From assembly GCF_009914755.1 (NCBI RefSeq), contig NC_060925.1: a DNA stretch of 64,000 bases; one strand, written 5' to 3'. Shown piece after piece: positions 12,038 to 27,600 of this stretch. The first letter of the stretch is position 1; each line of letters starts with the position of its first letter. This DNA is from the human T2T-CHM13v2.0 reference genome, Homo sapiens. The notes beneath the pieces are model-generated. The model worked only from the letters and a program-made list of their open reading frames with translations, did no database searches and was not told the DNA's origin. Both the position numbers and the translations under genes were made by a program.

Positions 12038-15000
12038 TGCCCAGGCTTGCTTAGGTAAACAAAGCAGCTGGGAAGCTCGAACTGGATGGAGCCCACCACA
12101 GCTCAAGGAGGCCTGCCTGCCTCTGTAGGCTCCACCTCTGGGGGCAGGCACAGACAAAAAGACAGCAGTAACCTCTGCAGACTTAAATGTCCCTGTCTGA
12201 CAGCTTTGAAGAGAGCAGTGGTTCTCCCAGCATGCAGCTGGAGATCTGAGAACGGGCAGACTGCCTCCTCAAGTGGGTCCCTGACCCCTGACCCCCAAGC
12301 AGCCTAACTAGGAGGCACCACCCAGTAGGGGCAAACTGACACCTCACACCGCCGGGTACTCCTCTGAGACAAAACTTCCAGAGGAACGATCAGAGAACAG
12401 GACTTGCGGTTCACGAAAAGCCGCTGTTCTGCAGCCACCGCTGCTGGGACCCAGGCAAACAGGGTCTGGAGTGGACCTCTAGCAAACTACAACAGACCTG
12501 CAGCTGAGGGTCCTGTCTGTTAGAAGGAAAACTAACAAACAGAAAGGACATCCACACCAAAAACCCATCTGTATATCACCACCATCAAAGACCAAAAGTA
12601 GATAAAACCACAAAGATGGGGAAAAAACAAAGCAGAAAAACTGGAAACTCTAAAAAGCAGAGTGCCTCTCTTCCTCCAAAGGAACGCAGCTCCTCACCAG
12701 CAACGGAACAAAGCTGGATGGAGAATGGCTTTGACGAGTTGAGAGAAGAAGGTTTCAGATGATCAAACTACTCTGAGCTACAGGAGGAAACTTAAACCAA
12801 AGGCAAAGAAGTTGAAAACTTTGAAAAAAATTTAGACGAATGTATAACTAGAATAACCAATACAGAGAAGTGCTTAAAGGAGCTGATGGAGCTGAAAGCC
12901 AAGGCTCGACAACTACGTGAAGAATGCAGAACCCTCAGGAGCCGATGAGATGAACTGGAAGAAAGGGTATCAGTGATGGAAGATGAAATGAATGAAATGA
13001 AGCGAGAAGGGAAGTTTAGAGAAAAAAGAATAAAAAGAAATGAGCAAAGCCTCCAAGAAATATGCGACTATGTGAAAAGACCAAATCTACGTCTGATTGG
13101 TGTACCTGAAAGTGATGGGGAGAATGGAACCAAGTTGGAAAACACTCTGCAGGATATTATCCAGGAGAACTTCCCCAATCTAGCAAGGCAGGCCAACTTT
13201 CAGATTCAGGAAATATAGAGAACGCCACAAAGATACTCCTCGAGAAGAGCAACTCCAAGACACATAATTGTCAGATTCACCAAAGTTGAAATGAAGGAAA
13301 AAATGTTAAGGGCAGCCAGAGAGAAAGGTCGGGTTAACCACAAAGGGAAGCCCATCAGACTAAGAGCGGATCTCTGGGCAGAAACTCTACAAGCCAGAAG
13401 AGAGTGGGGGCCAATATTCAACATTCCTAAAGAAAAGAATTTTCAACCCAGAATTTCATATCCAGCCAAACTAAGCTTCATAAGTGAAGGAGAAATAAAA
13501 TACTTTACAGACAAACAAATGCTGAGAGAATCTGTCACCACCAGGCCTGCCTTACAAGAGCTCCTGAAGGAAGCACTAAACATGGAAAGGAACAACCCAT
13601 ACCAGCCACTGCAAAATCATGCCAAATTGTAAAGCCCATCGAGGCTAGGAAGAAACTGCATCAACTAACGAGCAAAATAACCAGTTAACATCATAATGAC
13701 AGGATCAAATTCACACATAACAATATTAACTTTAAAGGTAAATGGACTAAATGCTCCAATGAAAAGACACAGACTGGCAAACTGGATAAAGAGTCAAGAC
13801 CCATCAGTGTGCTGTATTCAGGAAACCCGTCTCACGTGCAGAGACACACATAGGCTCAAAATAAAAGGATGGAGGAAGATCTACCAAGCAAATGGAAAAC
13901 AAAAAAAGGCAGGGGTTGCAATCCTAGTCTCTGATAAAACAGACTTTAAACCAACAAAGATCAAAACAGACAAAGAAGGCCATTACATAATGGTAAAGAA
14001 ATCAATTCAACAAGAAGAGCTAACTATGCTAAATATATATGCACCCAATACAGGAGCACCCAGATTCATAAAGCAAGTCCTGAGTGACCTACAAAGAGAC
14101 TTAGACTCCCACACAATAATAATGGGAGACTTTAACACGCCACTGTCAACATTAGACAGATCAATGAGACAGAAAGTCAACAAGGATATCCAGGAATTGA
14201 ACTCAGCTCTGCACCAAGCAGACTTAATGGACATCTACAGAACTCTCCACCCCAAATCAATAGAATATACATTTTTTTCAGCACCACACAACACCTATTC
14301 CAAAATTGACCACATAGTTGGAAGTAAAGCTCTCCTCAGCAAATGCAAAAGATCAGAAATTATAACAAACTGTCTCTCAGACCACAGCGCAATCAAACTA
14401 GAACTCAGGATTAAGAAACTCACTAAAAACCGCTCAACTACATGGAAAGTGAACAACTTGCTCCTGAATGACTACTGGGTACATAACGAAATGAAGGCAG
14501 AAATAAAGATGTTCTTTGAAAACAACAAGAACAAAGACACAACATACCAGAATCTCTGGGACACATTCAAAGCAGTCTGTAGAGGGAAATTTATAGCACT
14601 AAATGCTCACAAGACAAAGCAGGAAAGATCCAAAATTGACACCCTAACATCACAATTAAAAGAACTAGAAAAGCAAGACCAAACACATTCAAAAGCTAGC
14701 AGAAGGCAAAAAATAATTAAAATCAGAGCAGAACTGAAGGAAATACAGACACAAAAAACCCTTCAAAAAAATTAATGAATCCAGGAGCTGGTTTTTTGAA
14801 AGGATCAACAAAATTGATAGACCACTAGCAAGACTAATAAAGAAGAAAAGAGAGAAGAATCAAATAGATGCAATAAAAAATGATAAACGGGATATCACCA
14901 CCGATCCCACAGAAATACAAACTACCATCAGAGAATACTACAAACACCTCTACACAAATAAACTTGAAAATCTAGAACAAATGGATAAATTCCTCGACAC

Positions 15001-24600: not shown

Positions 24601-27600
24601 TTGTTGATCCTTTCAAAAAACCAGCTCCTGGATTCCTTAATTTTTGTAGGGTTTTTTGTGTCTCTATTTCCTTCAGTTCTGCTCTGATTTTAGTTATTTT
24701 TTGCCTTCTGCTAGCTTTTGAATGTGTTTGGTCTTGCTTTTCTAGTTCTTTTAATTGTGATGTTAGGGTGTCAATTTTGGATCTTTCCTGCTTTCTCTTG
24801 TGGGCATTTAGTGCTATAAATTTCCCTCTACACACTGCTTTGAATGTGTCCCAGAGATTCTGGTATGTTGTGTCTTTGTTCTTGTTGTTTTCAAAGAACA
24901 TCTTTATTTCTGCCTTCATTTCGTTATGTACCCAGTAGTCATTCAGGAGCAGGTTGTTCAGTTTCCATGAAGTTGAGCGGTTTTGAGTGAGATTCTTAAT
25001 CCTGAGTTCTAGTTTGATTGCACTGTGGTATGAGAGATAGTTTGTTATAATCTCTGTTCTTTTACATTTGCTGAGAGCTTTACTTCCAACTATGTGGTCA
25101 ATTTTGGAATAGGTGTGGTGTGGTGCTGAAAAACATGCATATTCTGTTGATTTGGGGTGGAGAGTTCTGTAGATGTCTATTAGGTCCGCTTGGTGCAGAG
25201 CTGAGTTCAATTCCTGGGTATCCTTGTTGACTTTCTGTCTCGTTGATCTGTCTAATGTTGACAGTGGGGTGTTAAATCTCCCATTATTAATGTGTGGGAG
25301 TCTAAGTCTCTTTGTAGGTCACTCAGGACTTGCTTTATGAGTCTGGGTGCCCTTGTATTGGGTGCATATATATTTAGGATAGTTAGCTCTTCCTGCTGAA
25401 TTGATCCCTTTACCATTATGTAATGGCCTTCTTTGTCTGTTTTGATCTTTGTTGGTTTAAAGTCTGTTTTATCAGAGACTAGGATTGCAACCCCTGCCTT
25501 TTTTTGTTTTCCATTTGCTTGGTAGATCTTCCTCCATCCTTTTATTTTGAGCCTATGTGTGTCTCTGCACGTGAGATGGGTTTCCTGAATACAGCACACT
25601 GATGGGTCTTGACTCTTTATCCAATTTGCCAGTCTGTGTCTTTTCATTGGAGCATTTAGTCTATTTATATTTAAAGTTAATATTGTTATGTGTGAATTTG
25701 ATCCTGTCATTATGATGTTAGCTGGTTATTTTGCTCGTTAGTTGATGCAGTTTCTTCCTAGCCTCGATGGGCTTTACAATTTGGCATGATTTTGCAGTGG
25801 CTGGTATGGGTTGTTCCTTTTCATGTTTAGTGCTTCCTTCAGGAGCTCTTTTAGGGCAGGCCTGGTGGTGACAAAATCCCTCAGCATTTGCTGGTCTGTA
25901 AAGTATTTTATTTCTCCTTTGCTTACGAAGCTTAGTTTGGCTTGATATGAAATTCTGGGTTGAAAATTCTTTTCTTTAAGAATGTTGAATATTGGCACCC
26001 ACTCTCTTCTGGCTTGTAGGGTTTCTGCCGAGAGATCCGCTGTTAGTCTGATGGTCTTCCCTTTGTAGGTAACCCGACCTTTCTCTCTGGCTGCCCTTAA
26101 CATTTTTTCCTTCATTTCAACTTTGGTGAATCTGACAATTATGTGTCTTGGAGTTGCTCTTCTCGAGGAGTATCTTTGTGGCGTTCTCTGTATTTCCTGA
26201 ATCTGAACGTTGGCCTGCCTTGCTAGATTGGGGAAGTTCTACTGGATAATATCCTGCAGAGTGTTTTCCAACTTGGTTCCATTCTCCCCATCACTTTCAG
26301 GTATACCAATCAGATGTAGATTTGGTCTTTTCACATAGTCCCGTATTTCTTGGAGGCTTTGCTCATTTCTTTTTATTCTTTTTTCTCTAAACTTCCCATC
26401 TCGCTTCATTTCATTCATCTTCCATCGCTGATACCCTTTCTTCCAGTTGATCGCATCGGCTCCTGAGGCTTCTGCATTCTTCACGTAGTTCTCGAGCCTT
26501 GGTTTTCAGCTCCATCAGCTCCTTTAAGCACTTCTCTATATTGGTTATTCTAGTTATACATTCTTCTAAATTTTTTTCAATGTTTTCAACTTCTTTGCCT
26601 TTGGTTTGCATGTCCTCCCGTAGCTCAGAGTAATTTGATCGTCTGAAGCCTTCTTCTCTCAGCTCGTCAAAGTCATTCTCCATCCAGCTTTGTTCCGTTG
26701 CTGGTGAGGAACTGCGTTCCTTTGGAGGAAGAGAGGCACTCTGGTTTTTAGAGTTTCCAGTTTTTCTGTTCTGTTTTTTCCCCATCTTTGTGGTTTTATC
26801 TACTTTTGGTCTTTGATGATGGTGATGTACAGATGGGTTTTTGGTGTGGATGTCCTTTCTGTTTGGTAGTTTTCCTTCTAACAGACAGGACCCTCAGCTG
26901 CAGGTCTGTTGGAATACCCTGCCGTGTGAGATGTCAGTGTGCCCCTGCTGGGGGGTGTCTCCCAGTTAGGCTGCTCAGGGGTCAGGGGTCAGGGACCCAC
27001 TTGAGGAGGCAGTCTGCCTGTTCTCAGATCTCCAGCTGCGTGCTGGGAGAACCACTGCTCTCTTCAAAGCTGTCAGACAGGGACATTTAAGTCTGCAGAG
27101 GTTACTGCTGTCTTTTTGTTTGTGTGTGCCCTGTCCCCAGAGGTGGAGCCTACAGAGGCAGGCAGGCCTCCTTCAGCTGTGGTGGGCTCCACCCAGTTCC
27201 AGCTTCCTGGCTGCTTTGTTTACCTAAGCAAGCCTGGGTAATGGCGGGCGCCCCTCCCCCAGCCTCGCTGCCGCCTTGCAGTTTGATCTCAGACTGCTCT
27301 GCTAGCAATCAGGGAGACTCCGTGGGCGTAGGACCCTCGGAGCCAGGTGCGGGATATAATCTCGTGGTGCGCCGTTTTTTAAGCCGGTCGGAAAAGCGCA
27401 GTATTTGGGTGGGAGTGACCCGATTTTCCAGGTGCGTCCGTCACCCCTTTCTTTGACTCGGAAAGGGAACTCCCTGACCCCTTGCGCTTCCCAAGTGAGG
27501 CAATGCCTCGCCCTGCATCAGCTCGCGCACGGTGCACGCACCCACTGATCTGCACCCACTGTCTGGCACTTCCTAGTGAGATGAACCCGGTACCTCAGAT

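What the first reader, a model, noticed from the sequence alone, without database searches (positions are those of the whole stretch)
12600..26790. Inverted L1 pair of different subfamilies shares many private substitutions: patchwork gene conversion
Seen: the two L1s keep subfamily-type differences throughout (5'UTR long vs short; NCLS/NYLS, IKKL/IKNL, RTKD/RAKD, YLKI/YFKI, KPDK/KPEK; distinct 3'UTRs) and have separate TSDs, so they are independent insertions. Yet both carry the same variants interleaved with those differences: NNPYQ, aaagcccatc, NAPMKR, KIKTDK, FENNKNK, EKQDQT, RRQKI, gataaacggg, gaagaaattgaa, VARINS (15078/24334), YDQPAAN (~15600/~23805), cctcttcaac, INILKM, KTTFKF. As I recall the L1PA consensus these read NNRYQ, aaagacc, APIKR, KRDK, ETNENK, QEQT, QEI, aaagggg, gaagtt, VAIINS, DKPTAN, cctattc, IVKM, TTLKF. 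Inference: repeated short-tract conversion between two 6-kb inverted arms about 3.8 kb apart, like palindrome arm-to-arm conversion. Several shared changes create C or G, which hints at GC bias.
Basis: partly seen in the sequence, partly recalled or inferred. Interest (0 to 1): 0.8.

Follow-up and report, generated by a model that had tools for sequence, protein, structure and literature searches.

The report
Patchy gene conversion between inverted L1s
Two separately inserted LINE-1 retrotransposons lying tail to tail in an intron of COP1 have copied many short patches of sequence into each other, a clear example of a known repair-driven process rather than a new kind of element.

Summary
Left L1 (L, 11585-17830, +) and right L1 (R, 21660-27689, -) are full-length, tail to tail, 3.8 kb apart and 95.45% identical.

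**Independent insertions.** They differ at 21 of 29 sites that separate genomic copies with and without a 128-bp 5'UTR segment. R has its own 13-bp target-site duplication.

**Shared variants.** Between 12130 and 16250 they share 15 variants carried by 0 of 43 other genomic copies. Of the 989 other pairs, one had 14 and the rest at most 4; that one is a 99.77%-identical duplicate.

**No hidden sub-lineage.** Eight exact 23-24-mers covering ten shared sites occur at 2 to 45 places in the assembly. No third locus carries two of them.

**Patchwork.** The shared sites fall in at least eight patches, separated by retained subfamily differences. In two patches R carries the "long" alleles, and the shared set matches L's odd mutation spectrum, so copying ran mostly L to R.

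**Best reading (0.85):** repeated short-tract, non-reciprocal gene conversion, or patchy repair of longer heteroduplex.

GC bias is not supported, and the arms are not homogenised as palindrome arms are. This is a new member of a known kind, of moderate interest.

The parts
11585..17830 (+). Left full-length L1 (L), 'long' type: it carries the 128-nt 5'UTR segment. ORF1 and ORF2 are broken. A-rich tail ends about 17825.
   Evidence: It has the 'long' state at 25 of 29 diagnostic sites.
21660..27689 (-). Right full-length L1 (R), 'short' type: it lacks the 128-nt segment. It is inverted relative to L, with the two 3' ends facing each other across a 3.8-kb spacer.
   Evidence: It has the 'short' state at 22 of 29 diagnostic sites and the 'long' state at 6.
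12362..12489 (+). 128-nt 5'UTR segment present in L and absent from R (the gap falls at R 26912). It is present in 19 and absent from 19 of the panel copies used.
   Evidence: It probably corresponds to the published 129-bp L1PA3long/L1PA3short difference (passages of bioRxiv 10.1101/429613). Its position was not checked against published coordinates.
27690..27702 (.). Target-site duplication of R at its 5' side: GATTCTTTCTTTT.
   Evidence: Exact 13-mer shared with 21649-21661.
21649..21661 (.). Target-site duplication of R at its 3' (spacer) side. Its position beside R's own tail shows there has been no net inversion of the spacer.
   Evidence: sequence seen.
12671..12671 (+). Patch 1: shared private C>T (R 26730). 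It is bounded by diagnostic differences at 12632 and 12739, so the patch is under 107 nt.
   Evidence: Carried by 0 of 43 panel copies.
13598..13644 (+). Patch 2 (R 25808-25762): shared 13598 and 13599 (NNPYQ) and 13635. R carries 'long' alleles at 13627 and 13644, so the direction was L to R. It lies in a 99-nt identical run, 13586-13684.
   Evidence: The 23-mers occur at 10 and 5 places genome-wide.
13967..13967 (+). Patch 3 (R 25439): shared G>C (KIKTDK), in a 169-nt identical run, 13830-13998.
   Evidence: Carried by 1 of 43 panel copies.
14522..14710 (+). Patch 4 (R 24888-24700): shared 14522, 14679 and 14710. It is bounded by diagnostic differences at 14418 and 14763. L-private sites at 14577 and 14615 split it into two identical runs (14459-14576 and 14616-14716), so it may be two patches.
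   Evidence: The 23-mers occur at 4 and 16 places genome-wide.
14845..15078 (+). Patch 5 (R 24567-24334): shared 14888, 15032 and 15078. R carries 'long' alleles at 14845, 15007 and 15061, so the direction was L to R. It is bounded by 14766 and 15241, so it spans 234 to 475 nt.
   Evidence: The 23-mers occur at 45 and 11 places genome-wide.
15423..15423 (+). Patch 6 (R 23989): shared T>C. This one is weak, because the identical run around it is only 3 nt.
15602..15697 (+). Patch 7 (R 23810-23715): shared 15602 and 15608 (YDQPAAN) and 15697. It is bounded by diagnostic differences at 15575 and 15931.
   Evidence: The 24-mer with both 15602 and 15608 occurs only in L and R in the whole assembly. 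The 15697 23-mer occurs at 38 places.
16133..16133 (+). Patch 8 (R 23279): shared change to C (INILKM). It is bounded by 15931 and 16165, so the patch is under 234 nt.
16309..16573 (+). Patch 9 (R 23103-22839): shared 16425 (0 of 11 panel copies). L carries 'short' alleles at 16309 and 16573, so the direction may have been R to L. The panel here is small.

Best explanation
Two L1 elements of neighbouring subfamilies inserted independently, tail to tail and 3.8 kb apart, in a COP1 intron. One has the 128-nt 5'UTR segment and one lacks it.

After insertion, breaks or gaps in one arm were repaired using the other arm on the same chromosome as template. The outcome was non-crossover, so nothing was inverted or deleted. 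Each event copied a short patch, tens to a few hundred bases, carrying the donor's own mutations and its subfamily alleles into the acceptor. At least eight such patches lie between 12671 and 16573, mostly copied from L into R. A smaller number of long heteroduplexes repaired patchily would give the same picture.

- **Shown:** independent origin, pair-exclusive shared variants, interleaving with retained differences, non-reciprocity.
- **Inferred:** the repair mechanism, the direction of most patches, the timing.
For: 1. **Independent origin.** L and R are in different states at 21 of 29 long/short diagnostic sites, including the 128-nt indel. R has a 13-bp target-site duplication.
2. **Pair-exclusive variants.** 15 shared variants are carried by 0 of 43 other copies. 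Of the 989 other pairs, 988 had at most 4; the one with 14 is a 99.77% duplicate.
3. **No third carrier.** Eight signature k-mers occur at 2-45 places genome-wide. No other locus holds two of them, and 15602+15608 is found only in L and R.
4. **Not parallel hypermutation.** 9 of the 16 shared changes are transversions and 1 is a CpG transition.
5. **Mosaic structure.** Shared sites are separated by diagnostic differences into at least eight groups.
6. **R's 'long' alleles sit beside shared sites.** R carries 6 'long' alleles. Of all 8 diagnostic sites where L and R agree, 5 lie within 50 nt of a shared private site, against 3 of 20 discordant diagnostic sites (Fisher p=0.022).
7. **Non-reciprocal.** Where R is 'long', L is 'long' too, so there was no swap.
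8. **Direction.** G<->C transversions make up 11 of 51 L-private variants, 0 of 45 R-private and 4 of 16 shared (shared vs R-private p=0.0035; shared vs L-private p=0.74). In 14630-15129 there are 6 shared and only 2 L-private variants.
9. **Shared sites lie in long identical runs.** Mean run length is 91.5 nt against 66.0 for random sites (734 of 20000 permutations reach it).
10. **Scale fits.** The abstract of bioRxiv 10.1101/135152 gives a mean tract of 250 bp and 2.5e-7 per nucleotide per generation. Assuming about 12-15 million years (recalled age of L1PA3) and 20-25 years per generation (assumed), that predicts roughly 12-19% converted. Observed: 16 of 112 private variants shared (14%) and 6-8 of 29 diagnostic sites concordant.
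Against: - **No outgroup or second haplotype was available.** Neither the pre-conversion state nor the direction of any patch was seen directly.
- **Overall similarity is not raised.** In 12130-16250 L-R identity is 96.01%. Among 324 unlinked long-short pairs, 201 are at least as similar. L ranks only 20th of 44 among R's matches.
- **Some statistics are modest.** The run-length excess is p about 0.037. The distance test gives p=0.068 by Mann-Whitney.
- **Some single-site patches may be noise.** L's two 'short' alleles (13044, 14178) and R's lone 'long' allele at 13340 could be ordinary noise. Panel copies show 0-5 such odd sites each.
- **The ends are thinly sampled.** The 5' 430 nt and the 3' 1.4 kb were compared with panels of only 9 and 11 copies. 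They show nothing at the 5' end and one solid shared site (16425) at the 3' end.
- **Panel selection.** The panel came from a search that scores only 40 of 5483-7551 candidates.
- **No GC bias,** which is reported for non-allelic conversion elsewhere.
Confidence: 0.85

Rival explanations
1. Common descent. L and R were both copied from one rare source element, or one from the other, and that source already carried the shared variants.
For: Shared private variants can arise by descent. The panel pair L022/L027 shares 14. Some of the single variants do occur in other copies, at 4-45 places each.
Against: L and R differ at 21 of 29 subfamily-diagnostic sites, including a 128-nt indel, and these are interleaved with the shared sites. 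The descent pair L022/L027 has 9 differences in 3996 nt, whereas L-R has 159 in 3982. No third locus carries two of the eight signatures. Two offspring of a source with no other progeny landing 3.8 kb apart is very unlikely (inference).
Confidence: 0.04
2. Parallel mutation. The same hypermutable sites mutated independently in both copies.
For: Each single variant recurs elsewhere in the genome at 2-43 further places, so recurrence at these sites does happen. The isolated site 15423 sits in a 3-nt identical run.
Against: 9 of 16 changes are transversions and only 1 is a CpG transition. 988 of 989 control pairs share at most 4 such variants. The sites cluster with R's 'long' alleles.
Confidence: 0.02
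3. Assembly or polishing cross-talk between the two arms in T2T-CHM13.
For: None from these tools. Reads and other assemblies were not available, so this remains untested.
Against: The arms differ at about 4.5% of sites and by indels of 128 and 55 nt. Long accurate reads should therefore place unambiguously (inference). Cross-talk would not be expected to produce single shared bases between retained differences in at least eight separate places.
Confidence: 0.04
4. Recurrent inversion of the spacer by crossovers between the arms, an even number in total. The shared patches would be the conversion tracts that accompany each crossover.
For: An inverted L1PA3 pair, 6.2 kb each, mediates the polymorphic human inversion HsInv0341 (table in PMC3961182). 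So arms like these can cross over.
Against: The present orientation matches R's target-site duplication. L is 'long' and R is 'short' at both ends, with no reciprocally swapped segment. At least eight patches would need many crossovers.
Confidence: 0.05

Closest known systems
Non-allelic gene conversion between neighbouring Alu elements (Aleshin and Zhi 2010, as described in passages of PMC6598467 and PMC8230782)
   Same: It involves dispersed retrotransposon copies of independent origin, within about 10 kb of each other, exchanging non-diagnostic mutations. The result is mosaic patterns of subfamily-diagnostic sites.
   Different: Here the partners are two 6-kb full-length L1s in inverted orientation. 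At least eight separate patches are resolved in one pair. The cited work is statistical, on 300-nt Alus. PMC8230782 states that most studies of conversion between transposable elements concern Alu.
Non-allelic gene conversion between human gene duplicates (Harpak et al., bioRxiv 10.1101/135152; abstract seen)
   Same: Short tracts, with a mean of 250 bp. The rate of 2.5e-7 per nucleotide per generation roughly predicts the converted fraction seen here. The process slows as the copies diverge.
   Different: That study reports a large GC bias. Here the shared variants are 6 W>S and 6 S>W. The partners here are non-coding, dead retrotransposons.
Inverted-repeat-mediated polymorphic inversions, for example HsInv0341 flanked by inverted L1PA3 copies (PMC3961182; table and passages seen)
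   Same: The same architecture: two roughly 6-kb L1PA3-type arms in inverted orientation on one chromosome, able to recombine.
   Different: That case is a crossover outcome that inverts 20.8 kb. Here there is no net inversion and the exchange is non-reciprocal. This locus is not in that paper's table (0 hits for COP1 or RFWD2).
Arm-to-arm conversion in large palindromes such as those of the human Y chromosome (recalled; no paper seen)
   Same: Intrachromosomal conversion between inverted arms separated by a short spacer.
   Different: Palindrome arms are kept nearly identical (recalled). These arms are 95.45% identical and only about 14-25% of informative sites are concordant.
L1 gene conversion in the older literature (Burton et al. 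[quoted passage not shown]
   Same: Conversion involving L1 copies has been proposed before.
   Different: I did not read that paper, so I cannot say how its cases compare.

Membership tests
Non-allelic (interlocus) gene conversion between neighbouring repeat copies | The two copies are of independent origin, not a duplication of one another. | tested here: met
   21 of 29 diagnostic sites differ, including the 128-nt indel. R has its own 13-bp target-site duplication. L's duplication was not found.
Non-allelic (interlocus) gene conversion between neighbouring repeat copies | The copies share variants that are absent from other family members. | tested here: met
   15 variants at 0 of 43 copies, while 988 of 989 control pairs have at most 4. 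No third locus carries two of the eight signatures.
Non-allelic (interlocus) gene conversion between neighbouring repeat copies | Converted tracts are bounded by retained copy-specific differences, giving a mosaic. | tested here: met
   At least eight groups of shared sites are separated by diagnostic differences.
Non-allelic (interlocus) gene conversion between neighbouring repeat copies | The transfer is non-reciprocal. | tested here: met
   At the 6 sites where R is 'long', L is also 'long'. No swapped segment was found.
Non-allelic (interlocus) gene conversion between neighbouring repeat copies | An unconverted state is visible in an outgroup or another haplotype. | not testable with these tools
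   Only the window's own assembly could be searched.
Non-allelic (interlocus) gene conversion between neighbouring repeat copies | The transmitted alleles are GC-biased. | tested here: not met
   Shared variants are 6 W>S, 6 S>W and 4 S<->S. L-private variants are 16 W>S and 20 S>W. The sample is small, and this feature is usual rather than defining.
Palindrome with concerted evolution of its arms | The arms are kept nearly identical along their length. | tested here: not met
   95.45% identity overall. 201 of 324 unlinked long-short pairs are at least as similar as L-R.
L1PA3long / L1PA3short subgroups | Presence or absence of the 129-bp 5'UTR segment (passages of bioRxiv 10.1101/429613). | tested here: inconclusive
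   A 128-nt 5'UTR indel with the same edges splits the panel 19 to 19. No Dfam or RepeatMasker library was available to name the subfamilies or match the published coordinates.

The most novel reading that the evidence does not exclude
The pair is a long-lived intrachromosomal repair hotspot. An older, decayed L1 has repeatedly overwritten short patches of its younger inverted neighbour, at about the rate measured for gene duplicates. If this holds for L1 pairs within a few kilobases in general, then decay spreads between neighbours. Divergence-based ages and subfamily calls of clustered L1s would be biased. Intronic inverted L1 pairs would mark sites of recurrent breakage that occasionally resolve as inversions.
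Probability: 0.25. Interest if true: 0.55.

Novelty: new member of a known kind. Interest (0 to 1): 0.42.

Why it matters
**A well-resolved example.** Two 6-kb arms that differ at about one site in 22 give roughly 140 informative markers: 112 private or shared variants plus 29 diagnostic sites. Patch sizes, number and direction can therefore be read off one locus.

**Consequences for L1 annotation.** Neighbouring L1 copies do not evolve independently. This affects dating by divergence and subfamily assignment. It also affects any use of private L1 variants as locus-specific markers, for example when mapping L1 transcripts or methylation reads.

**A possible survey.** Complete assemblies would allow a genome-wide survey of conversion between close L1 pairs as a function of distance, orientation and identity.

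It does not reveal a new mechanism.

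Tried and rejected
- **Fetching full-length copies.** The central 4.1 kb therefore rests on 43 copies, and the two ends on only 9 and 11 copies.
- **Sub-lineage hypothesis.** The 13598/13599 23-mer occurs at 8 other loci. The 4 of these that I could fetch are 82-95% identical to L. 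None carries more than two of the 18 shared sites checked beyond 13598/13599, the variant they were selected for. Rejected.
- **GC bias.** Rejected.
- **Target-site duplication of L.** Only an offset 10-mer in AT-rich flanks was found, taken as chance.
- **Sites dropped as ambiguous.** 12149 and 14765 lie next to indels, so I removed them from the robust list of 16.
- **Jacobs et al. 2014 on ZNF93.** The id I tried was not held. I used passages of bioRxiv 10.1101/429613 instead.
- **Published description of this locus.** Five library searches found none. A phrase search for L1 gene conversion gave one paper, where it appears only as a reference entry. The supplements of inversion catalogues were not searched.

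Full report
**Anatomy**

- The left element L runs from 11585 to an A-rich tail ending near 17825-17830 on the + strand.
- The right element R runs from 27689 down to 21660 on the - strand.
- The two 3' ends therefore face each other across about 3.8 kb.

A global alignment gives 6246 and 6030 nt. There are 274 mismatches in 6022 aligned columns, 95.45% identity. L has an extra 128 nt in the 5'UTR (12362-12489) and an extra 55 nt at 17338.

Both elements have broken reading frames. The listed peptide motifs fall at the end of ORF1 and along ORF2. Which ORF each belongs to is my recollection of L1 structure.

R is flanked by an exact 13-mer, GATTCTTTCTTTT, at 27690-27702 and 21649-21661. No convincing duplication was found for L.

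**Comparison set**

The window's own assembly could be searched.
- A 1.2-kb query from L (13600-14800) and the matching stretch of R each returned 40 scored matches, out of 7551 and 5483 candidates. Neither list contained the partner element.
- The 58 loci kept from these searches, 4.2 kb each, cover L coordinates of about 12100-16300. I aligned them to the L-R alignment.
- 43 of the 58 were retained. The other 15 were under 93% identical or poorly covered.
So the 3' 1.6 kb and the 5' 430 nt were compared with only 11 and 9 copies.

**Is the sharing real?**

In 12130-16250, L and R share 15 variants carried by none of the 43 other copies, and 18 carried by at most two. The counts for all 990 pairs were: 749 with 0, 187 with 1, 45 with 2, 6 with 3, 1 with 4, 1 with 14, and L-R with 15.

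The pair with 14, L022 and L027, lies on two chromosomes. It has 9 differences in 3996 nt, so it is a recent duplication.

Two of the L-R sites (12149, 14765) abut indels and I set them aside. That leaves 16 robust sites: 12671, 13598, 13599, 13635, 13967, 14522, 14679, 14710, 14888, 15032, 15078, 15423, 15602, 15608, 15697 and 16133.

The other two (13761, 16231) are minority states carried by 3 of 36 copies.

**Is there a hidden sub-lineage?**

Exact 23-24-mers around the shared sites were counted in the whole assembly.

| Shared site(s) | Places in the assembly |
|---|---|
| 13598/13599 | 10 |
| 15602+15608 | 2 (L and R only) |
| 15078 | 11 |
| 14888 | 45 |
| 13635 | 5 |
| 14522 | 4 |
| 14679 | 16 |
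| 15697 | 38 |

I compared the lists by contig and coordinate. No locus other than L and R appears in two lists.

Of the eight other carriers of the 13598/13599 variant, I could fetch four. They are 82-95% identical to L. None carries more than two of the 18 shared sites checked, beyond 13598/13599 for which they were selected.

So each single variant recurs here and there among thousands of copies, but the combination is confined to this pair.

**Independent origin and mosaic**

The panel splits into 19 copies with the 128-nt segment ("long") and 19 without ("short"). 29 sites separate the groups at 75% or more in each.
- L is "long" at 25 sites, "short" at 2 (13044, 14178) and other at 2.
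- R is "short" at 22 sites, "long" at 6 (13340, 13627, 13644, 14845, 15007, 15061) and other at 1.
- No "short" panel copy shows R's pattern. Apart from L013 (4) and the atypical L064, "short" copies have 0-3 scattered "long" states.

The shared private sites are interleaved with the 21 discordant diagnostic sites. The bounds are:

| Shared site(s) | Bounded by |
|---|---|
| 12671 | 12632 and 12739 |
| 14522-14710 | 14418 and 14763 |
| 14845-15078 | 14766 and 15241 |
| 15602-15697 | 15575 and 15931 |
| 16133 | 15931 and 16165 |

This gives at least eight separate patches, from under 107 nt to under 475 nt. Where R is "long", L is "long" too, so the transfer was non-reciprocal.

Of the 8 concordant diagnostic sites, 5 lie within 50 nt of a shared private site. 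Of the 20 discordant ones, 3 do (Fisher p=0.022; Mann-Whitney p=0.068).

**Direction**

In two patches (13598-13644 and 14845-15078) R carries "long" alleles together with the shared variants. That points to copying from L into R.

Independently, L's private variants have an unusual spectrum. G<->C transversions are 11 of 51 in L-private variants, 0 of 45 in R-private and 4 of 16 in the shared set.
- Shared against R-private: p=0.0035.
- Shared against L-private: p=0.74.

In 14630-15129 there are 6 shared, 2 L-private and 4 R-private variants.

At 16309 and 16573 L carries "short" alleles, next to the shared site 16425. That suggests one patch copied the other way, but the panel there has only 11 copies.

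**Limits and results against the reading**

- **Overall similarity is not raised.** 201 of 324 unlinked long-short pairs are at least as similar as L-R. L ranks 20th of 44 among R's matches, although R ranks first of 44 among L's. This fits patches covering a minority of the sequence and does not support homogenisation.
- **The run-length excess is modest.** Shared sites lie in identical runs with a mean of 91.5 nt, against 66.0 for random sites. 734 of 20000 permutations reach that value.
- **There is no GC bias.** The shared variants are 6 W>S, 6 S>W and 4 S<->S.
- **The ends show little.** The first 430 nt has no convincing shared rare site. The last 1.4 kb, nearest the spacer, has only 16425 as a solid site and 17528 as a weak one.
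- **Not available.** No outgroup, second haplotype or reads.

**Comparison with what is known**

- Conversion between neighbouring Alus within about 10 kb, and mosaic diagnostic patterns, are described in PMC6598467 and PMC8230782 (passages seen).
- For gene duplicates, the abstract of bioRxiv 10.1101/135152 gives a mean tract of 250 bp, a rate of 2.5e-7 per nucleotide per generation and a large GC bias. Assuming about 12-15 million years for L1PA3 (recalled, not seen) and 20-25 years per generation (assumed), that rate predicts roughly 12-19% of nucleotides converted. Observed: 16 of 112 private variants shared, and 6-8 of 29 diagnostic sites concordant. This is a rough inference only.
- An inverted L1PA3 pair mediates the polymorphic inversion HsInv0341 (table in PMC3961182). 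Here R's target-site duplication shows no net inversion.
- The 128-nt indel probably corresponds to the 129-bp L1PA3long/L1PA3short difference tied to ZNF93 evasion (passages of bioRxiv 10.1101/429613). I could not check the coordinates or name the subfamilies, because no repeat library was available.
- Five library searches found no description of this locus.

**Verdict**

GC bias and the palindrome analogy are not. This is a well-resolved new instance of a known process.

Noticed in passing
window 17337-17414: A 78-nt piece matching the last 78 nt of an L1 (3'UTR end plus A-tail) is nested inside L. It is 91% complementary to R's 21666-21743 and absent from 11 of 11 panel copies. It looks like a severely 5'-truncated L1 insertion into L.
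   Followed up: partly
window 12910-14615 (L): L's private variants are rich in G<->C transversions: 11 of 51, against 0 of 45 in R (p=0.0007). All lie in the 5' half of the compared region. The cause is unknown; it could be a peculiarity of L's source element or a local mutational process.
   Followed up: partly
window 14978 / 24434: This site has three states inside a converted patch: L has C, R has A, and all 38 panel copies have G. It may be a shared variant that mutated again in one arm.
   Followed up: no
loci L022 (G000:C1:65437716-65441915) and L027 (G000:C17:33833603-33837802): These two L1 copies on different chromosomes have 9 differences in 3996 nt (99.77% identical) and share 14 pair-private variants. 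This is presumably a recent inter-chromosomal segmental duplication.
   Followed up: partly
window 26886-27387: The RefSeq 'enhancer' feature in the hub's table lies wholly inside the 5'UTR of R, so it is an L1 promoter region.
   Followed up: no
window 18936-19672: The spacer holds pieces of an older L1 that are 75-83% complementary to L's 16490-17239, so they are inverted relative to L (pairs I12, I14, I15, I20).
   Followed up: no
locus L021 (G000:C3:123293092-123297291): This panel copy carries the 128-nt segment. It is 'long' at the 5' diagnostic sites and mostly 'short' from 14178 onward (9 'short' states). It is either an intermediate subfamily member or another mosaic.
   Followed up: no
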